Source: an uncultured Bacteroidota bacterium (lineage in GTDB: Bacteria > Bacteroidota > Bacteroidia > Bacteroidales > UBA10428). Taken from it: DNA of 64,000 nt. Position numbers and translations under genes: made by a program. The stretch covers positions 1,926,775 through 1,990,774 of the forward strand of contig CAVTDR010000006.1 of NCBI GenBank assembly GCA_963733535.1. Reading direction: 5' to 3'. The first letter of the stretch is position 1, and each line of letters starts with the position of its first letter. The notes beneath the pieces are model-generated. The model had not been told where the DNA came from. It was given only the letters and a program-made list of their open reading frames with translations, and made no database searches. Below are positions 30,351 to 61,864 of the stretch, in pieces.

Positions 30351-30773
30351 AGGAAAAATCTACGATCCGGAACGACCGGATAACTTCAAAAAATATTTTT
30401 CATTTTATTGAAATAAAAAGAGGCGTACTAAGAAATTCATCTAGAATTTATTAGCAGCCTCTCTGGTATTGATTTCGCCGTTTTTCTTACGCCAGTCCTA
30501 ACTGGTTCAAGTTAAAGGGATATTATCTCAGTTTTCAAAAAACACTCCCAAACAGTGATCATCAATTCCGCATTAGGTAATTCAAGTATTATGCCTATTA
30601 TAATTGTCAGATTTTCAGAAGTGTTTGTTTTTTGGGGTGCGGAGAAAATTTCACATTTGTAGAAATTATTCGACAGACCATATTTTGTATAACTCTTATT
30701 CCGATGAATCGTATTTACAATAATGTTATAAAAAAACAGGTAAATTTAAGCACATAAATCTGATTCTTTTCTC

Positions 30774-32690: not shown

Positions 32691-32733
32691 ATACTGGATA
32701 TTGGATACTGGATACTGGATGTGTGGATGTGAG
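32691..32733. repeat. tandem 7-bp repeat array (CTGGATA-type), left arm of an inverted repeat bracketing tRNA-Ser
   Basis: ctggata ttggata ctggata ctggatg tgtg. Its reverse complement matches 33239-33263 apart from one extra heptad. Confidence 0.85.
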
Positions 32734-32878
32734 AATTAGAGTCTGGGTGTGATTGTACACACACGTTCCACCTCACCCACACAGCAAGTATCCAGAATCT
32801 AGCATCTAGCATCTAGTATCTTATCGATTACCGATTCTTACTGCTCATCACTACCCTTGGTATTTATATTTGAAATAG

Positions 32879-32898: not shown

Positions 32899-32985
32899 GG
32901 AGAGGTGCCAGAGTGGTCGATCGGGGCAGTCTCGAAAACTGTTGAACCCTTCGGGGTTCCGGGGGTTCGAATCCCCCCCTCTCCG
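32899..32985 (+). tRNA. tRNA-Ser (anticodon CGA)
   Basis: Hand-folded. Acceptor GGAGAGG/CCTCTCC, anticodon stem GCAGT/ACTGT with loop CTCGAAA, long variable arm TGAACCCTTCGGGGTTCC, and T-arm GGGGG-TTCGAAT-CCCCC. CCA is not encoded. Confidence 0.9.
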
Positions 32986-33052
32986 CAAAAGAATGAATAT
33001 CCCGGGCGAAGCCACCAGCGCGAAGCGATGGTCGGGATATTCATTCTTTTGC
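32985..33052. repeat. perfect 20-bp inverted repeat (long hairpin) abutting the tRNA 3' end
   Basis: gcaaaagaatgaatatcccg (32985-33004) pairs with cgggatattcattcttttgc (33033-33052). The loop contains the GCGAAGC mini-hairpin. No T-run follows, so it is not a canonical terminator. Confidence 0.8.
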
Positions 33053-33238
33053 TGGGACCTCCCCTTCAGGGATCACGCAGTAATCCTAAACCCGAACTCA
33101 AGCTTGCTTGAAAGTTCGGGTTTAAATTTAAAATACCACCAGCGCAAAGCGTGTGGTGGTTAAAATAGCAGGGGTTTTTGGGACAATTGGGACAGATACT
33201 TGATGTGTGTGTCAGTATGGACCGCCACACTCAACACT

Positions 33239-33263
33239 CACACATCCAGTATCCAATATCCAG
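33239..33263. repeat. heptad array (TATCCAG-type), right arm of the inverted repeat and left flank of the IS110-type insertion
   Basis: cacacatccagtatccaatatccag. The array continues on the far side of the IS at 34929-34956. Confidence 0.85.
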
Positions 33264-33334
33264 CTTACTATATTGCAGAATAAAAAAAGACTGCTAAGTT
33301 TGATTTGACTTAAGAATCTAAAATAGCAGTCTTT

Positions 33335-34591
33335 ATGAAAAATAAACAGTACAAATTTATAAAAGTAAACGGAAAAACTTTGATAGTTGGAATCGACATC
33401 GGTAAAAGCAATCATTACGGCTTTTTCTTAACATTGAGTTATGAATCAGCAAAGAGCTTTCAGTTCTCCAACACAAGAGAAGGATTTAATTTGTTAATAG
33501 GTAAAATAAACAGATTTACAAAGGTTAACGATATTGAAAATGTAGTAATCGCAGTAGAGTCAACAGGAAATTACTGGCTCCCATTGGCATATTACATTCA
33601 TAACAATACAAATTACTCCCTCGTGCAGGTTAATGGAAAGCATACTAAACGATTCAAAGATGTAACAGACAATACCCCTAATAAAACAGATCATAAAGAT
33701 CCCAAAGTAATCGCTCAAGTAGTTCTTATTGGAAGCAGCCTAAGGGTAAATCTGCCTCAAGGGGTAAAGGCGAATGTGAGAGAGTTAACACGTTCCAGAA
33801 AAGCTTTGCAGGCTGACCGTAAAAGGGTTGTGAACCGTATACATGCTATTTTGTCTTTATACTTTCCAGAATATTTAGATTTGTTTAAAGACATTAGTTG
33901 CAAAACCAGTACATTTTTACTAAAAAACCATCCAAGTCCAGGGAGTATTATAAAGCTAGGTCTGGAGCCATTGATAAAAGAACTCCAAAAAATAAGCAGG
34001 GGAAGATGTAATATAAAAAAAGCTGAAGAGCTTATTACAGCTGCTTTTAATACTATTGGAGTTAGAGATGGGCTTGAATCCTATCAGAGCATGGTTTTAG
34101 CATATATTGTTCAAATAGAGTTGTTTGACACACAAATGTCAGCTGTTGAGAATCAGATCAAAGCATCATTGGCTTCCCTGGAAGAATATTATATTCTCAG
34201 AACCATAAAAGGGATAGGTGATATTACCATAGCAACAATTATTTCTGAGATCGGAGAATTTAGCCAATTCAAGACAAACAAAGAACTACTTAAGTTTGGA
34301 GGACTAAATTTGATTGAAAACAGTTCAGGTAACCATAGAGGTAACAGAAGAATATCAAAAGTAGGCAATGAGCATTTACGTACCAGTTTATATTTTCTTG
34401 CCTTGCGAATGGTTAAGAAGGGGGGTATTTACCATGAACAATACACAATGTATGTGAATAAAGGAATGGAAAAGAAAAAGGCAATTATTGCTATATCACG
34501 CAAATTGTTACGAACGATCCATTCCTTAATTAAGAACAATCAAGCATTTGATTACGAGCATAAAATACAATACATAAAAACTGCAGCATGA
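33335..34591 (+). CDS. IS110-family transposase (DEDD RuvC-like N-domain + Transposase_20 C-domain)
   Basis: VGIDIGKSNH, VAVESTGNYW and IKGIGDITIATIISEIGEFSQF...LIENSSGNHRGNRRISKVGNEHLR. Confidence 0.9.
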   Translation: MKNKQYKFIKVNGKTLIVGIDIGKSNHYGFFLTLSYESAKSFQFSNTREGFNLLIGKINRFTKVNDIENVVIAVESTGNYWLPLAYYIHNNTNYSLVQVNGKHTKRFKDVTDNTPNKTDHKDPKVIAQVVLIGSSLRVNLPQGVKANVRELTRSRKALQADRKRVVNRIHAILSLYFPEYLDLFKDISCKTSTFLLKNHPSPGSIIKLGLEPLIKELQKISRGRCNIKKAEELITAAFNTIGVRDGLESYQSMVLAYIVQIELFDTQMSAVENQIKASLASLEEYYILRTIKGIGDITIATIISEIGEFSQFKTNKELLKFGGLNLIENSSGNHRGNRRISKVGNEHLRTSLYFLALRMVKKGGIYHEQYTMYVNKGMEKKKAIIAISRKLLRTIHSLIKNNQAFDYEHKIQYIKTAA

Positions 34592-34600
34592 TTTTGGTAC

Positions 34601-34676
34601 GGCAAAGGGAAGCATCTCTGGATACTTTAAGGCTTTTTTAAAGACCTTCTGCCCCAGCTTTAAGGCTCCCTTTGTC
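34601..34676 (+). ncRNA. candidate bridge/seek-RNA target-binding stem-loop of the IS110-type element
   Basis: A 10-bp stem (ggcaaaggga / tccctttgtc, one G-U pair) starts 10 nt after the stop codon. The loop contains ctggatact (34618-34626), the reverse complement of the right junction agtatccag. It also contains ccagctt (34654-34660), identical to the left junction at 33260-33266. Confidence 0.4.
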
Positions 34677-34928
34677 GGCCTTGATATAGTCTCGATTAAG
34701 TAAGAATATGGCCAATCAGGACCATCAAAATATTAGTATTAGACGATCTTGGCTTCCATTAAAAGCTGTTGTTTTAAACAAAAATTAGTCTTATGAACAA
34801 AAGAAAAAAGTAGCAAAAAAGAAAAGTGTTAATACCCAGAATAACTCTCCGTAAACTACGAGTTATTTCCAGGTATTAACACTATTACATCAAAATATAT
34901 TCAATTAAACTTGTCTAAGTTAAATTAG

Positions 34929-34956
34929 TATCCAGTATCCAGTATCCAGTATCCAT
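34929..34956. repeat. tandem heptad array TATCCAG x3 + TATCCAT (right flank of the IS)
   Basis: Read directly: tatccag tatccag tatccag tatccat. Confidence 0.9.
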
Positions 34957-34970
34957 TATTCCTCATAGTT

Positions 34971-48345: not shown

Positions 48346-48579
48346 CTATGTTGCAAACCAAGTTTTATTGAAGTTTTTTTCATTTTTTTTCAATTAATTT
48401 TACAATTGTGAAGTTGAAGAGGAAACAGGCTCTGCTGAGGAGCAACCTGTCAGCAATAGACTTCATGGATGTACTGCATTTTGGGAAGGGATAAAAACTC
48501 CCTTCCCAAAATAAATGCAGGTATCCTATATGGCTAAAAAAACCTAGCCAGTAAAGTGGTTAACTATTCAAAGAATAAA

Positions 48580-48733
48580 ATCTACAAAAACAACCTTCTA
48601 TCAACAGACCCTGTATGAGGGCTGCATTACCTCGCTTTAGTTTTTATAGAATGTGAGCTGTTGCCTTTGCATAACAGATTCTCTAAGAACTGTAAGAACG
48701 AATAACAGGCTCACAAGAGTTGTTTTTGTAGAT
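48580..48733 (-). ncRNA. candidate bridge/seek RNA domain of the IS1111-like element
   Basis: A perfect 15-bp closing stem (48580-48594 / 48719-48733) lies 7 nt past the transposase stop. An inner stem (48653-48662 / 48704-48714) encloses a 41-nt loop. The loop is bounded by gcctttgca (identical to the right junction 49901-49909) and aagaacgaa (reverse complement of the left flank 48337-48345). Confidence 0.5.
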
Positions 48734-48740
48734 ACTATAT

Positions 48741-49820
48741 TTATTTAGCCCATGAAGACACATATGGTTGTTTATTTTTCAATACAAATTTTATTCTGCT
48801 CAGTAGCTTTTTCGCTATTCTTACTATTGATTTATTTGCATCCATTCGTTTGCAATAGGCAAGATGACTATTTAATAACACTGGATCAAGGCGTACGGCG
48901 GTCCATGCACTTTCAATGATCGCAATGCGTAATACGCTATGACCTCTTGGGGTAACATCTCCGATTTTTTCCTTCTCTCCCGAGCTTTTCGTTGATGGCA
49001 CAAAGCCTATATAACAACATAACTTGTCGAAATTGTCAAACCTGAGTATACTTTCCAATTCAGTCAGAATGACCATGGCTGTTAATAACCCAATACCTGG
49101 AATACTTCTTAATAAAATAACATTATTATGATAAGTATCAGTCTGACTTAGTTTGTGAATCTGTTTAGTTAAATCCAGAATAGCTTCTCTTAAGTTTTTA
49201 CTCTGTTGAATAAATGAACTTAGTGCAATTTTTCCACTTTCTTCCTTTAATTCAATGGATTCAAGCCAGGTCATAAACCTTTGCGACCAATGACTTTGAG
49301 ACTTGTTGAATGAATCGGGATAGTCAATACCATGAAAATAGAGAAACGACTTAATCCGGTTCTTAAACCGGACCATATCTTTCACCATGGTAGCACGAGC
49401 TCTTAAAAGACCACGGTCTTCGAGTGTTTTTAAACCCGGAACATAAATAGCTTTAAGTTCTCCATTTCGTAAGAATCGTGCAATTTTCCTGCTATCTCTT
49501 TGATCTTCTTTTTGCACTTTTTCCTTATTGGTTGTTGGAATATCCCCCGGATTAACAACAATAGAGTTTATTCCTAGTGATATCAGTTTATTATGTATCC
49601 AATATCCACAAAAACCTGCTTCATAGGCGGAATGATATATACCGCCAGGAAAATTCCGTACAAGATACTGATGCAAAAGTTCAGGATTTGGATCCTGTGA
49701 AAATGTCTTTATCGCCACCTTTTCCGTAAGAACAGTCACTTTCCAGCTTTTTAAATGCACATCAAAACCTACATAAATGTTTTGATTGCTGAAGTCTAAT
49801 TTGTTACTTTGTATATCCAT
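48741..49820 (-). CDS. IS110-family transposase
   Basis: YVGFDVHLKSW, the DEDD-type N-domain and IPGIGLLTAMVILTELESILRF...VPSTKSSGEKEKIGDVTPRGHSVLR. Confidence 0.9.
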   Translation of the reverse strand: MDIQSNKLDFSNQNIYVGFDVHLKSWKVTVLTEKVAIKTFSQDPNPELLHQYLVRNFPGGIYHSAYEAGFCGYWIHNKLISLGINSIVVNPGDIPTTNKEKVQKEDQRDSRKIARFLRNGELKAIYVPGLKTLEDRGLLRARATMVKDMVRFKNRIKSFLYFHGIDYPDSFNKSQSHWSQRFMTWLESIELKEESGKIALSSFIQQSKNLREAILDLTKQIHKLSQTDTYHNNVILLRSIPGIGLLTAMVILTELESILRFDNFDKLCCYIGFVPSTKSSGEKEKIGDVTPRGHSVLRIAIIESAWTAVRLDPVLLNSHLAYCKRMDANKSIVRIAKKLLSRIKFVLKNKQPYVSSWAK

Positions 49821-59424: not shown

Positions 59425-60325
59425 CCTTACAATTTTCAAAAGCTATTATATGTCTGGAATTACCACCGGGTTATAAGGGGGTGAAACCCCTTATATTCAC
59501 GCTCCCCTTTCCCTTCATATTTAATCGAAGCTATATTTAGTAGTCCGGAGACTACGATTTAAAAGCAGCGTAGTTAGAAATCTGAAGAAAACTACGCCGC
59601 ACAACATTGATCTTTATCTACAATACATTATGCCTCCGGGCAAGGGAGCAAGTGATAAATGTAATTGTATGTCTCATAATTCAATGGTGTAGCTAAGCCG
59701 AAATTGGGTTTTCAAAATGTCAGCGACATTTTGCACTTTGCGCCTTTTTCTTCATCCAGTATGTCAAACATAACTTTTCCTTTGTGCCTTCGTGCCTTTG
59801 TTTGTGCCGTGAAGTTAGAGAATAGACTGAAGTTCTTTAACATGCTGTAATAAAGATGATACAATTGAGGAGGCTAACCTCAATGAAGTATCGGTAATGC
59901 TGTACAGGCAGGATTACCAAACCACTCTACGCTGCAAAGGTCGTAAGACTGCTGTGGTGAACGGATAGAGAAAAGGCTCTCAAGAGTCAGGTAAGTTATT
60001 AAGAGATGAATGCAAATGAATCGCTGATGAAGTAACGAAATCGCATAAGTTGTAGGGCAAAAACACATTGTGCAAAGGATGTAGTGATAAGCATGGCAGA
60101 CACCTGATTTACTGGCTGTGTGCCCACCGTTATACAGGCGACATGACTTAATAACAGGCTTTATTATAGAACACGGGATCTCCATCTTAAGGGACATCGG
60201 ATTAGAATCAGATGAAAGATGGAAGTCGGACAGTGTCATAGTAGTAATGACATCTGGTGAAAGCCAGAAAGAGCGAAGGACACTGGTCATTCAGTGGAAA
60301 TTTAAGTAACAACCTCAAAAGGGGG

Positions 60326-61573
60326 ATGATTATGTTAAACGTACACGTAGAGAAAACAGTACCAATTGAGTTCAGGCAGGTGGTAAAAGCCTACTGGAAA
60401 GTAAGAAAAGGAGGAAAGGCAGCAGGGATCGATCATGAGAGCTGGACGGAATTTGAAAAGAATACCGAAAAGAACTTGTACGTGATCTGGAACCGGCTGT
60501 CCTCTGGCAGTTACCATCCGCAGGCAGTCAGAGAGGTAGAAATACCAAAGAAAGACGGGAAAAAGAGAAAATTAGGCATTCCAACACTACGAGACAGGAT
60601 AGCACAGCAAGTAGTGAAGGAACACATGGAAAAGCAGGTAGATAAGCTTTTCCATGAAAACTCTTATGGTTATAGGCCATTAAAGAGCGCACATCAAGCG
60701 GTTGAACAGGTCAGGAAGAACAGTTACAAGTACGACTGGGTCATCGACATGGACATCCAAAAGTTCTTTGATGAAATTGATCATGAGTTAATGTTGAAAG
60801 CGGTGACGCATGTACTGGAAGAGAAGTGGGTCAAGATGTATGTGGAGCGATGGTTGAGTATGCCAATTATGAAGAAAGACGGTACCCTGGAACAGAGAAA
60901 CGGGAGAGGGACACCGCAAGGAGGCGTAATCAGTCCATTATTAGCAAATCTCTACTTGCATTTTACACTAGACGCTTGGCTAGAGAAGCATTATCCGGAA
61001 GTAAGTTTTGTTCGGTATGCAGATGATGTAGTAATACACTGTAAAACCAAAGAACAAGCAGAAACTGTACTTGAAGCAATAAAGATAAGGCTTAACGAAG
61101 TCAAGCTGGAAATCAAACAGGAGAAAACGCACATCGCATACTGTAAAGATTATAGACGCAAATTAAAGCATGGTACTGTCAAATTTGATTTCTTGGGATT
61201 TAGCTTTCAGCCAAGAGCCCGTAAGAGCAAAATTGATGGGAAATCGTTCACTGCCTTCACCGCAGAAATCAGTCAATCCAATCAGAAGAAAATCCGAGAC
61301 GAAATCAGAGAAGCGCCTGTGTGGAAGAATACGAGTGGGGAAATAGAGGGCATCGCTGACTACTTCAACAGTAAACTTCGTGGCTGGATAGGCTACTATG
61401 GTCCCTACAGTAAGAAATGCCTTAGAATTACGCTTCTTCACATAGATTATAGGATCGCAAAGTGGTTGCGTAAAAAGTACCGTCTTGGACTTAGAAAAGC
61501 TGTAAATAAACTCAACTTAATGAAATCGGAGAAACCCTTTTTGTTCTTTCATTGGGAATCTGGTATTTGTTGA
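60326..61573 (+). CDS. group II intron reverse transcriptase/maturase (no endonuclease domain evident)
   Basis: RT motifs incl. RKLGIPTLRDRIAQ, GTPQGGVISPLLANLYL and YADDVVI. Maturase X domain LRGWIGYYG. The start was moved to an ATG preceded by aaaaggggg. No HNH or Zn-finger tail. Confidence 0.9.
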   Translation: MIMLNVHVEKTVPIEFRQVVKAYWKVRKGGKAAGIDHESWTEFEKNTEKNLYVIWNRLSSGSYHPQAVREVEIPKKDGKKRKLGIPTLRDRIAQQVVKEHMEKQVDKLFHENSYGYRPLKSAHQAVEQVRKNSYKYDWVIDMDIQKFFDEIDHELMLKAVTHVLEEKWVKMYVERWLSMPIMKKDGTLEQRNGRGTPQGGVISPLLANLYLHFTLDAWLEKHYPEVSFVRYADDVVIHCKTKEQAETVLEAIKIRLNEVKLEIKQEKTHIAYCKDYRRKLKHGTVKFDFLGFSFQPRARKSKIDGKSFTAFTAEISQSNQKKIRDEIREAPVWKNTSGEIEGIADYFNSKLRGWIGYYGPYSKKCLRITLLHIDYRIAKWLRKKYRLGLRKAVNKLNLMKSEKPFLFFHWESGIC

Positions 61574-61591
61574 TATTCTAAAGAATGGCAC

Positions 61592-61625
61592 GAGCCGTAT
61601 GACGGGAGACTGTCACGTACGGTTC
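61592..61625 (+). ncRNA. group II intron domain V
   Basis: GAGCCGUAUGACGGGAGACUGUCACGUACGGUUC is a 34-nt hairpin with the AGC triad, a 2-nt AC bulge on the 3' arm and a GAGA (GNRA) tetraloop. Confidence 0.85.
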
Positions 61626-61864
61626 TGTGAGAGGCTTAGGGGTGTAACTCCCCTTTGCCTACTCGGCGGCTGTCAATTTATCGGTTCCGGTGCGTTGCAT
61701 CTTAATGGTTTTTGTGATCTGATTTTTTGCTGCAAATATTTAGGTGCACTGCACCTGATAAGCCATTTCGCACAAATAATATCTCGAAAGCATTGTTTTT
61801 ACTGAACAATCAGATATCCTCATTGTTGTCCATATGTCACTCTCTCATGAGTGACAACAGTTAT

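What the first reader, a model, noticed from the sequence alone, without database searches (positions are those of the whole stretch)
33264..34928. Second, unrelated IS110-family element inserted in a 7-bp tandem repeat array, with the same guide-like stem-loop just after its recombinase gene
The TATCCAG heptad array is interrupted between ...ccaatatccag (ending 33263) and tatccagtatccagtatccag (from 34929). The 1665 bp between them encode a 418-aa IS110-family recombinase. This protein shows no obvious close similarity to the one at 48741-49820.

Ten nt after the stop codon, a 10-bp stem (34601-34610 / 34667-34676) encloses a loop. The loop contains ctggatact (34618-34626), the reverse complement of the right junction agtatccag at 34927-34935. 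Further 3' it contains ccagctt (34654-34660), identical to the left junction 33260-33266, which spans target CCAG plus the IS end CTT.

The order (antisense to the right flank, then sense to the left junction) and the position relative to the stop codon match the other element. The two observations therefore support each other. Because the target is a tandem repeat, this element may have many equivalent landing sites. The match significance is also somewhat inflated by that repetition.
Basis: partly seen in the sequence, partly recalled or inferred. Interest (0 to 1): 0.7.

Follow-up and report, generated by a model that had tools for sequence, protein, structure and literature searches.

The report
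Bridge-RNA insertion sequence in heptad repeats
This is an intact, probably active IS110-family mobile element that carries its own two-loop guide ("bridge") RNA just after the recombinase gene and uses it to insert at one fixed phase of TATCCAG repeat arrays; the mechanism has been known since 2024, so this is a new example, not a new kind of system.

Summary
A 1665-bp element (33264-34928) splits a TATCCAG heptad array. It encodes a 418-aa IS110-family recombinase. A stem-loop after the stop codon holds CTGGATACT (antisense to the right junction) and CCAGCTT (sense to the left junction).

Comparison with 85 related loci shows what it is. All of them carry a conserved ~175-nt RNA with four covarying helices that form two lobes.
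- Lobe 1 is a target-binding loop. Its 5' strand covaries with the right flank and its 3' strand with the left flank (permutation p<=1e-4 each).
It covaries with the element's own left and right ends.

This is a bridge RNA (seekRNA). It lies in the right end and has IS1111-like strand order, but the recombinase is a long IS110-type protein and there are no subterminal inverted repeats.

Seven insertions of this clade, at five loci in at least three assemblies, all sit at CCAG|IS|TATCCAG. Two of the loci hold tandem pairs. Sister lineages have retargeted loops and sit in matching, different sequences.

Verdict: real and well explained; a new member of a known kind; moderate interest.

The parts
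33244..33263 (+). Left half of the interrupted TATCCAG heptad array (left target). The last two bases, AG (33262-33263), are one copy of the core dinucleotide.
   Evidence: The same phase is seen at 6 other insertions.
33264..34928 (+). The insertion sequence, 1665 bp. Because AG occurs at both junctions, the boundaries could equally be written 33262-34926.
   Evidence: The ends were defined by comparison with 100% identical copies at other loci and with 86%-identical copies.
33264..33274 (+). Left end. CTTACT (33264-33269) is the donor half-site read by the donor-binding loop. TATATT (33269-33274) is the -10-like half of the promoter that would form at the circle junction.
   Evidence: The left-end sequence CTT(A/G)CTATATTG is conserved across the family. 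It covaries with the RNA.
33286..33334 (+). A 20-bp hairpin that ends at the base before the ATG. It may occlude translation initiation (inference).
   Evidence: I4: arms 33286-33305/33315-33334, 85% complementary. It is retained in L002. An analogous hairpin is visible in distant relatives (output).
33335..34591 (+). Recombinase gene: 418 aa, with an N-terminal DEDD/RuvC-like domain and a C-terminal Tnp domain.
   Evidence: NF033542, 236 bits against a cutoff of 140. D21, E75, D119, D122, S331 and G332 are invariant in 30 homologues. Aligned to IS621.
34600..34677 (+). Bridge RNA lobe 1, the target-binding loop. It has an outer stem (34600-34610/34667-34677) and an inner hairpin (34629-34648).
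34618..34626 (+). 5' guide CUGGAUA+CU. It pairs with the coding-strand sequence AG+TATCCAG, that is, core plus right target.
   Evidence: Family covariation with the right flank: mean longest pairing 5.93 nt for cognate pairs against 3.97 for mismatched pairs, p<=1e-4.
34654..34660 (+). 3' guide CC+AG+CUU. CC matches the last two bases of the left target, AG is the core, and CUU matches the first three bases of the left end (putative handshake guide).
   Evidence: Family covariation of the six positions before AG with the left flank: 3.73 against 2.24, p<=1e-4. AGCUU is family-conserved.
34683..34748 (+). Bridge RNA lobe 2, the donor-binding loop. It has an outer stem (34683-34692/34741-34748) and an inner hairpin (34708-34725).
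34699..34704 (+). Donor guide AGUAAG, antisense to the left end CTTACT.
   Evidence: Covariation in four states: AGUAAG/CTTACT, AGCAAG/CTTGCT, AGCUCG/CGAGCT and AGCACG/CGTGCT.
34732..34739 (+). Donor guide AUU+AG+UAU. It is identical to the right junction ATTAG|TAT (34924-34931): right end, then core, then a 3-nt handshake to the right target.
   Evidence: The right-end variants ATTAG, ATCAG, ACCAG and ACAAG are each mirrored in the RNA. The handshake covaries with the first right-flank base, p~5e-5.
34822..34886 (+). Long hairpin in the right end, preceded by an A-rich block (~34790-34821). Function unknown. Conserved in the closest clade only.
   Evidence: (I5).
34911..34928 (+). Right end. 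TTGTCT (34911-34916) is the -35-like half of the junction promoter: 17 nt lie between it and TATATT once the ends are joined. ATT+AG (34924-34928) is the donor left half-site plus core.
   Evidence: the family has TTGACn, then 12 nt to the end, then CTTGC, then TATATT.
34929..34959 (+). Right half of the heptad array (right target). It contains two further perfect, unoccupied 11-bp sites, at 34932-34942 and 34939-34949.
32691..32720 (-). A separate, unoccupied TATCCAG array in inverted orientation on the other side of tRNA-Ser. It has one perfect site (32708-32718).

Best explanation
The element is an autonomous IS110-family insertion sequence. Its right non-coding end encodes a bridge RNA (also called seekRNA) of about 160-175 nt (34600-34748), immediately 3' of the recombinase gene.

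What the sequences show:
- The RNA has two lobes. Each is an outer stem, a large internal loop and an inner hairpin.
- In lobe 1, the 5' strand of the loop (CUGGAUACU) is complementary to the core AG plus the right target TATCCAG on the coding strand.
- The 3' strand of the same loop (CC-AG-CUU) has the sense of the last left-target bases, the core, and the first three bases of the element.
- In lobe 2, AGUAAG is complementary to the left end CTTACT. AUU-AG-UAU has the sense of the right end, the core, and the first three right-flank bases.
- AG on the coding strand (CT on the other strand, as in IS621) is the only sequence shared by the joined ends and the target.

Inferred by analogy with IS621, ISEc11 and ISEc21:
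- The element excises as a circle whose RE-LE junction (...TTAAATT-AG-CTTACT...) creates a TTGTCT-17 nt-TATATT promoter.
- Recombinase dimers loaded with the two lobes hold the donor junction and a CC-AG-TATCCAG target together.
- The serine/DEDD active sites exchange strands at the core. The 3-nt extensions after AG act as handshake guides that pair with the incoming strand.

Because the 11-bp site recurs once per heptad, every unit of a TATCCAG array is a landing site. This explains the in-phase insertions and the tandem copies.
For: Protein:
- Both IS110-family Pfam domains are present. NF033542, 'IS110 family RNA-guided transposase', scores 236 bits.
- The DEDD residues and the Ser-Gly motif are invariant in 30 homologues.
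- The C-terminal domain aligns to IS621.

RNA structure:
- In a 55-sequence alignment, 95.7% of cells are paired against 82.4% in shuffles. 27 of 31 pairs show double changes. 0 of 500 shuffles reach the observed values, and sliding the partners collapses pairing to 33-54%.
- The covariance model finds the RNA next to the gene in all 85 loci, including about 30 that were not in the seed. In the window it finds only this site.

Target loop:
- 5' guide against the right flank, and 3' guide against the left flank: both give permutation p<=1e-4 over 58 and 59 distinct pairs.
- Members whose left and right flanks are unrelated show which strand reads which flank. Examples from the table: L052 TCAGGAAA/TTTCCTGA, L056 AAATGTAG/AAATGTAG, L070 GTGGCAAT/ATTGCCAC.

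Donor loop:
- Four left-end variants and four right-end variants are each mirrored in the RNA.
- The handshake position covaries with the first right-flank base (79% against 48%, p~5e-5).

Insertion sites:
- Seven insertions of this clade are all at CCAG|IS|TATCCAG: the window, L087, the L088/89 pair, the L002/3 pair, and L006.
- Four copies are 100% identical in DNA, which points to recent activity.
- Sister lineage L007 (59% aa identity) has retargeted loops and sits in ACCGAAG/ACGGAAG heptads.

Literature:
- Bridge RNA and handshake guides: PMC11208160, PMC11208158.
- seekRNA downstream of tnp, with the top-strand match placed 5': PMC11187229.
Against: - There is no expression or biochemical evidence. 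All mechanistic steps beyond complementarity are by analogy.
- Folded alone, the window's RNA is not thermodynamically exceptional (z=-1.78). Its minimum-free-energy fold pairs CUGG with CCAG inside the loop.
- The left-target guide of this clade is very short (2-3 nt). The positions before it differ among close relatives (CUGCCCC, CCGCGCC, CCGCUCC), so they are probably not guiding.
- The 'handshake' reading of CUU in lobe 1 cannot be shown by covariation. The left end is almost invariant, and where it differs (CGA/CGT in L014, L031, L041, L043) the RNA keeps CUU.
- The base opposite the core A is A rather than U in many relatives.
- In one subclade, 1-5 unexplained extra bases lie between the right end and the sequence matched by the guide.
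- No Rfam family matches.
Confidence: 0.9

Rival explanations
1. The matches between the loop and the junctions are chance products of low-complexity, repeated sequence. The stem-loop is just a transcription terminator or an mRNA-stabilising hairpin for the recombinase gene.
For: - The 9-mer occurs 7 times in the window because of the arrays.
- The RNA's folding energy alone is unremarkable (z=-1.78).
- Most of the 7-mer is a family-conserved motif.
Against: - No terminator-like site was found on the + strand here, and no U-tract follows the stem.
- The structure is conserved with compensatory changes in 85 loci.
- The loop strands change in step with the flanks in dozens of unrelated targets.
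Confidence: 0.02
2. The RNA guides target choice only (a single-function seekRNA). The element's ends are recognised by the protein, as proposed for IS1111 elements with subterminal inverted repeats. On this view the second lobe is a scaffold, not a donor-binding loop.
For: - Siddiquee et al. described target matches only in short seekRNAs and suggested that end recognition may differ between families (PMC11187229).
- The donor ends are so conserved in this family that few independent changes are available for a covariation test.
Against: - No significant subterminal inverted repeats exist here.
- Every available left-end variant (4 states) and right-end variant (4 states) is mirrored at the predicted loop positions.
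- The 3 nt after AG in lobe 2 track the right flank, as expected for a handshake guide.
Confidence: 0.05
3. The two 'guide' strands of lobe 1 pair with each other (CUGG/CCAG) as an ordinary RNA helix. The flanking TATCCAG|TATCCAG is a 7-bp target-site duplication made on insertion, not a pre-existing array recognised by RNA.
For: - The minimum-free-energy fold pairs CUGG with CCAG.
- In 19 of 44 distinct family sites, the last 7 nt of the left flank recur in the right flank at a period of 7-10.
Against: - RNAalifold predicts no conserved helix between the loop strands.
- Members with unrelated left and right flanks have non-complementary guides that still match their own flanks (table).
- The repeats are imperfect and at variable offsets (compare L065 with L067).
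- Arrays of several units exist on both sides of the element and at unoccupied loci.
Confidence: 0.03

Closest known systems
IS621 and other IS110-group bridge recombinases (Durrant et al. 2024, PMC11208160; Hiraizumi et al. 2024, PMC11208158)
   Same: - DEDD/RuvC plus Tnp (Ser) recombinase.
- In each lobe one loop strand pairs with one DNA strand of the left half-site and the other with the opposite strand of the right half-site.
- A dinucleotide core shared by donor and target: AG here, which is CT on the other strand.
- Short extensions after the core that match the partner DNA (handshake guides).
- A promoter split between the two ends.
   Different: - The RNA lies in the right end, 3' of the gene, not in the left end.
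- Relative to the gene, the strand order of the guides is reversed.
- The recombinase is 418 aa against 326-341 aa. Only the C-terminal domain aligns significantly (E=1.6e-12).
- The apparent handshake is 3 nt rather than 2.
- The left-target guide is only 2-3 nt in this clade.
- No 5' stem-loop precedes lobe 1.
IS1111-family elements with a seekRNA (ISEc11, ISPa11, ISKpn4; Siddiquee et al. 2024, PMC11187229)
   Same: - The long non-coding region lies downstream of the recombinase gene.
- The segment complementary to the top strand lies 5' of the one complementary to the bottom strand.
- Insertion is site-specific, in one orientation, and gives no duplication.
- A junction promoter forms in the circle.
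   Different: - IS1111 transposases are 330-350 aa and their elements have 7-17-bp subterminal inverted repeats. Here the protein is 418 aa and no significant subterminal repeat exists.
- Durrant et al. note that many IS1111 RNAs hold the donor-binding bases in a multi-loop. Here both lobes are simple internal loops, as in IS621.
- Full-length plasmid-borne relatives are Bacillota and Streptomyces IS110-type genes at about 32% identity.
ISPpu9 of Pseudomonas putida (PMC12288879)
   Same: An IS110-family element that inserts into a short repeated extragenic sequence present many times per genome, with a small RNA gene downstream of the transposase gene (abstract).
   Different: - Its target is a REP palindrome, not a tandem heptad array.
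- Orphan copies of its RNA exist. None was found in this window.
- No sequence relationship was tested.

Membership tests
IS110 family (RNA-guided DEDD/serine recombinase insertion sequences) | N-terminal DEDD_Tnp_IS110 (RuvC-like) domain plus C-terminal Transposase_20 domain | tested here: met
   (E=3.5e-29 and 5.4e-23, both above the Pfam cutoffs). (NF033542, 236 bits against a cutoff of 140).
IS110 family (RNA-guided DEDD/serine recombinase insertion sequences) | Catalytic D-E-D-D residues and the conserved Ser-Gly of the G..P....SG motif | tested here: met
   D21, E75, D119, D122, S331 and G332 are invariant in 30 homologues. SSG aligns with the ESG of IS621. The Pro of the motif is Leu here (GLNLIENSSG).
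IS110 family (RNA-guided DEDD/serine recombinase insertion sequences) | No terminal inverted repeats, no target-site duplication, sequence-specific insertion in one orientation | tested here: met
   There are no end-to-end inverted repeats. Seven insertions are at the same site and phase. A duplication cannot be formally excluded inside a periodic array, but non-array sites of relatives show none.
IS110 family (RNA-guided DEDD/serine recombinase insertion sequences) | A long non-coding end encoding a structured RNA with two internal loops | tested here: met
IS110 family (RNA-guided DEDD/serine recombinase insertion sequences) | Loop nucleotides covary with the target flanks and with the element's ends; a core dinucleotide is shared by both | tested here: met
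   The AG core is present at both junctions in all loci whose ends were defined.
IS110 family (RNA-guided DEDD/serine recombinase insertion sequences) | Circular intermediate whose joined ends form a promoter | tested here: inconclusive
   The motif is present: TTGTCT-17 nt-TATATT across the inferred junction, conserved as TTGACn-17-TATATT in relatives. Circle formation and promoter activity cannot be tested here.
IS110 family (RNA-guided DEDD/serine recombinase insertion sequences) | The RNA binds the recombinase and is required for transposition | not testable with these tools
   Needs RNA-seq, RIP and transposition assays.
IS1111 group | Long non-coding region and RNA downstream of the recombinase gene, with the top-strand match 5' of the bottom-strand match | tested here: met
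   The left end is 71 nt and the right end 337 nt. Guide order. Definition from PMC11187229.
IS1111 group | Subterminal inverted repeats of 7-17 bp | tested here: not met
   In the window the best inverted match between the 40-nt ends is 7 of 8 at non-equivalent positions, and 131 of 200 shuffles do as well. Most relatives are also at chance level. L042 has 8 of 9 (19 of 200 shuffles).
IS1111 group | Transposase of about 330-350 aa related over its full length to that of IS1111 | tested here: not met
   The length is 418 aa. The family is 413-445 aa. Direct comparison with an IS1111 protein was not possible. Indirectly, tblastn against plasmids returns Bacillota and Streptomyces genes and few enterobacterial records.
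IS110 group (sensu Durrant / Siddiquee) | Bridge RNA encoded in the left end, upstream of the gene, with the bottom-strand match first | tested here: not met
   The RNA is in the right end and the order is reversed. Both papers mention a minority of IS110-type elements with a 3' non-coding region.
IS110 group (sensu Durrant / Siddiquee) | Both guide regions in simple internal loops; a long (395-455 aa) transposase in the IS110 subgroup | tested here: met
   (two simple internal loops). (418 aa). Size ranges from PMC11187229.
Any curated Rfam family | A covariance-model match at or near the gathering score | tested here: not met
   No hit at gathering thresholds. Only chance-level hits at E<=10.

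The most novel reading that the evidence does not exclude
The ~418-aa clade found here numbers more than 1700 proteins, almost all from uncultured Bacteroidota, Balneolales, Thermodesulfobacteriota and similar sources. It may be an undescribed lineage of bridge recombinases with a hybrid design:
- an IS110-type long recombinase;
- no subterminal repeats;
- an IS621-like RNA with two internal loops, but encoded in the right end with swapped strand order;
- 3-nt handshakes;
- in some members, a left-target guide reduced to 2-3 nt.

The lineage may also have specialised in short tandem repeats. 19 of 44 sites lie between two copies of a 7-10-bp repeat. If so, microsatellite-like arrays would serve as multi-copy safe harbours and would yield in-phase tandem IS arrays.
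Probability: 0.35. Interest if true: 0.5.

Novelty: new member of a known kind. Interest (0 to 1): 0.35.

Why it matters
- It shows that bridge-RNA logic can be read directly from raw sequence. Target loop, donor loop, core and handshake positions are all recoverable, and a set of 85 natural loci confirms them by covariation without any experiment.
- The clade supplies compact, apparently active orthologues: four identical copies and a ~160-175-nt RNA. Their natural retargeting series (TATCCAG, ACCGAAG, GCGCAGAG-type and many unique sites) is a ready-made specificity data set for people engineering bridge recombinases.
- Biologically, targeting one phase of a heptad microsatellite gives the element many harmless intergenic landing sites. 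This explains the tandem IS copies one or three repeat units apart.
- None of this changes the known mechanism.

Tried and rejected
- The genome-contig scan with the single protein returned only one short contig.
- Rfam gave no match, at gathering thresholds or at E<=10.
- Single-sequence folding of the RNA alone was not significant.
- The search for subterminal inverted repeats gave chance-level results, so I did not file the element under IS1111.
- I tried to show that CUU in lobe 1 is a handshake guide by covariation. This was not possible: the left end is nearly invariant, and the four loci with CGA/CGT ends keep CUU.
- I considered that the two guide strands form an RNA helix, and that TATCCAG|TATCCAG is a target duplication. 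I rejected both.
- A 33%-identical Geobacillus plasmid relative does not carry this RNA, so the RNA model does not extend to all long IS110-type genes.
- An exact-protein look-up for the other IS110 gene in the window found nothing, so its ends and guides were not analysed.
- Host identification was not pursued.
Full report
**1. The observation**

The sequence is as described. The heptad array ...ACATCCAG TATCCAA TATCCAG stops at 33263. It resumes at 34929 as TATCCAG TATCCAG TATCCAG TATCCAT. The 1665 bp between these points have 34% G+C, against 40% for the window. They contain one long ORF, 33335-34591, of 418 aa. The ORF carries both IS110-family Pfam domains. It also scores 236 bits on NCBIfam NF033542, 'IS110 family RNA-guided transposase'.

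The stem 34601-34610/34667-34676, the 9-mer CTGGATACT (34618-34626, the reverse complement of 34927-34935) and the 7-mer CCAGCTT (34654-34660, equal to 33260-33266) are all exact. The second IS110-type ORF in the window (48741-49820, minus strand) is a distant homologue: 28% identity over the C-terminal domain. It is distant, but it is not unrelated.

Taken alone, the window's evidence is weaker than it looks:
- The 9-mer is repeated 7 times because of the arrays.
- The RNA folded alone has z=-1.78.

The question therefore has to be settled by comparison with relatives.

**2. Relatives**

A protein search found 1731 homologues with E<=1e-10. Nearly all come from metagenomes and are 413-445 aa long. 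I collected:
- one genome locus;
- four places for an 86%-identical protein;
- 80 metagenome loci at 37-81% identity;
- three further places that encode exactly the window's protein.

**3. A conserved two-lobed RNA follows the gene**

The first ~175 nt after the stop codon align across the family. RNAalifold predicts four helices. For 31 pairs counted over 55 sequences:
- 95.7% of cells are standard pairs, against 82.4% after shuffling;
- 27 pairs show changes on both sides;
- 0 of 500 shuffles reach the observed values;
- sliding the partners by 1-3 columns drops pairing to 33-54%.

A covariance model built from this alignment finds the RNA next to the gene in all 85 family loci, including about 30 that were not in the seed. 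In the window it hits only 34593-34772, at 115.5 bits.

Each lobe is an outer stem, a large internal loop and an inner hairpin. In the window:
- Lobe 1 is 34600-34677, with its inner hairpin at 34629-34648.
- Lobe 2 is 34683-34748, with its inner hairpin at 34708-34725.

**4. Lobe 1 reads the target**

Element ends were defined independently of the RNA in two ways. The first was pairs of near-identical copies in different contexts. The second was the conserved end motifs CTT(A/G)CTATATTG on the left and ...A(A/T)AAA(C/T)(C/T)AG on the right.

- Across 58 distinct pairs, the 5' loop strand pairs with the coding strand of its own right flank far better than with the flanks of other loci. Mean longest pairing is 5.93 nt against 3.97, and 67% against 14% reach 6 nt or more (permutation p<=1e-4).
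- Across 59 pairs, the six positions before the conserved AG in the 3' loop strand match the left flank (3.73 against 2.24, p<=1e-4).

Loci whose two flanks are unrelated show which strand reads which flank. Examples from the table are L052 UCAGGAAA with TTTCCTGA, L056 AAAUGUAG with AAATGTAG, L070 GUGGCAAU with ATTGCCAC, and L075 UCCGGAAA with TTTCCGGA.

For the window, then:
- CUGGAUA-CU pairs with AG-TATCCAG, that is, core plus right target.
- CC-AG-CUU has the sense of left target, core, and the left end of the element.

AG is present at both junctions in every locus. It is therefore the core dinucleotide, and it reads CT on the other strand, as in IS621.

AGCUU is close to invariant in the family, so only CC is specific to this clade. 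The positions just before it differ among the closest relatives (CUGCCCC, CCGCGCC, CCGCUCC). The left-target guide is therefore only 2-3 nt here. Specificity rests mainly on the 9-nt 5' strand.

**5. Lobe 2 reads the element's own ends**

The 5' loop strand contains AGUAAG (34699-34704), antisense to the left end CTTACT. Across the family this covaries in four states:
- AGUAAG with CTTACT (9 of 9 loci, in three separate clades);
- AGCAAG with CTTGCT (the majority);
- AGCUCG with CGAGCT (L014);
- AGCACG with CGTGCT (L031, L041, L043).

The last two were predicted from the RNA before the ends were inspected.

The 3' loop strand contains AUU-AG-UAU (34732-34739), identical to the right junction ATTAG|TAT (34924-34931). 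The right-end variants ATTAG, ATCAG, ACCAG and ACAAG are each mirrored in the RNA.

The three bases after AG in this strand track the first bases of the right flank. Position 1 is identical in 79% of cognate pairs against 48% of mismatched pairs (p~5e-5). This is the behaviour of the handshake guides described for IS621, which pair with the partner DNA after strand exchange (PMC11208158).

The corresponding CUU in lobe 1 matches the left end CTT. Its role could not be tested, because the left end hardly varies, and where it does vary the RNA does not follow.

**6. What it is**

These are the defining features of a bridge RNA (Durrant et al., PMC11208160) or seekRNA (Siddiquee et al., PMC11187229).
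- The RNA's position 3' of the gene, and the order 'top-strand match first', are those reported for IS1111-type elements.
- The recombinase, however, is 418 aa, against 330-350 aa for IS1111 transposases.
- The ends carry no significant subterminal inverted repeats.
- Both guide regions sit in simple internal loops, as in IS621. They do not sit in the multi-loop noted for many IS1111 RNAs.
- Full-length plasmid relatives are Bacillota and Streptomyces IS110-type genes at about 32% identity.

I therefore place the element in the IS110 family, among the minority of IS110-type elements with a 3' non-coding region that both 2024 papers mention. I do not place it in IS1111 in the strict sense.

The right end carries TTGTCT (TTGACn in relatives) 12 nt from the terminus. 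The left end carries TATATT 5 nt from its terminus. Joining the ends would give a -35/17-nt/-10 promoter. Such a promoter has been shown experimentally for IS621, ISEc11 and ISEc21. Here it is an inference.

**7. Heptad targeting**

Seven insertions of this clade are available:
- the window copy;
- L087;
- the tandem pair L088/L089, separated by exactly one TATCCAG; these three copies are 100% identical in DNA to the window copy;
- the tandem pair in L002/L003, 86% aa identity, separated by three heptads, the two copies differing at 6 positions;
- L006.

All lie at CCAG|IS|TATCCAG, in the same orientation relative to the array, at five different loci in at least three assemblies.

The window still holds three perfect unoccupied 11-bp sites. 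Two are immediately to the right of the element, and one is in an inverted array across tRNA-Ser.

The sister lineage L007 (59% identity) has loops CUUCCGACU / CCGAAGCUA. It sits in an ACCGAAG/ACGGAAG heptad array. This is a natural retargeting to another microsatellite.

More widely, 19 of 44 distinct family sites lie between two copies of a 7-10-bp direct repeat, against 5.5% for mismatched flank pairs. This also explains why the two loop strands of lobe 1 are often complementary to each other, as with CUGG/CCAG in the window. The complementarity reflects a repeated target, not a conserved RNA helix.

**8. Rival explanations**

- Chance, or a terminator or stability hairpin. This is excluded by the covariation and by the lack of a terminator signature.
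- An RNA for target choice only, with protein recognition of the ends. This is unlikely given the lobe 2 covariation and the absence of subterminal repeats.
- A 7-bp target duplication. This is unlikely because arrays exist at unoccupied loci, and because the repeats at non-array sites are imperfect and variably spaced.

**9. Limits**

- There are no expression, binding or transposition data.
- The strand-exchange steps are inferred from IS621.
- The boundaries are ambiguous by the 2-nt core.
- Metagenome assemblies could collapse or duplicate identical tandem copies, although the L002 pair differs at 6 positions.
- The other IS110 element in the window was only glanced at. Its 3' region folds into two stem-loops inside a long closing stem (z=-4.4), but my model does not detect it.

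**10. Verdict**

It is fully accounted for by the bridge-RNA/seekRNA mechanism published in 2024. What is new is a well-documented new clade with an unusual combination of features and a microsatellite target, not a new kind of system.

Noticed in passing
window 32691-32840 and 33200-33263: tRNA-Ser (32899-32986) is flanked by clusters of different heptad arrays next to CAC-rich stretches: ATACTGG x4 (TATCCAG inverted), ATCTAGC x3.6, and TACCGAT-like units. The same composite (CCGATTA heptads, a CAC-rich stretch, TATCCAG heptads) flanks the copies in L087 and L089. These genomes seem to carry intergenic heptanucleotide microsatellite clusters, reminiscent of cyanobacterial STRR repeats (the comparison is from memory).
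   Followed up: partly
window 33286-33334: A 20-bp hairpin ends exactly at the base before the recombinase start codon. It is retained in the 86%-identical element, and an analogous hairpin (GGCTATAC...GCATAGCC-ATG) occurs in distant relatives. It may control translation.
   Followed up: no
window 34790-34886: An A-rich block (GAAAAAAGTAGCAAAAAAGAAAAG) is also seen in L007, L009, L010 and L016. It is followed by a long hairpin of about 28 bp (34822-34886) that shows compensatory changes in L007. Both lie in the right end, beyond the bridge RNA. Function unknown.
   Followed up: no
L058 2728-2903 and 3010-3185 (also L059): One element carries two tandem bridge RNA copies whose target guides differ (CUUCGCU against CGUCGCU). 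The second copy matches the actual right flank (AGCGACG) better. This looks like a partial duplication of the 3' end with divergent guides.
   Followed up: partly
L032, L034, L046, L058, L081 and L067, right junctions: In one subclade, 1-5 extra bases (often starting with CG) lie between the conserved right end ...AAACCAG and the sequence that the RNA guide matches. Both the guide and the handshake predict a junction without these bases. Unexplained.
   Followed up: partly
family loci L001-L085: 19 of 44 distinct insertion sites lie between two copies of a 7-10-bp direct repeat. Examples are GCGCAGAG/GACGCGGAG arrays and CACGAAG...CACGAAG. This suggests a family-wide tendency to target short tandem repeats. 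L053 and L054 sit in palindromic sites instead.
   Followed up: partly
L044 1-61: The contig begins with the 3' part of another bridge RNA (model positions 116-176) upstream of a complete element. This is probably another tandem pair.
   Followed up: no
window 48570-49820 (minus strand): A second IS110-family gene (359 aa, NF033542 at 184 bits) lies upstream of the tmRNA gene (50155-50567). Its 3' non-coding region folds into two stem-loops enclosed by a long stem, UCUACAAAAACAAC/GUUGUUUUUGUAGA (z=-4.4). The model built here does not detect it. Its ends and guides were not analysed.
   Followed up: partly
window 59885-61667; 30467-30559: Rfam hits: group II intron domains (RF01999 at 59885-59992, RF00029 at 61590-61667) and a TPP riboswitch (30467-30559, minus strand).
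   Followed up: no
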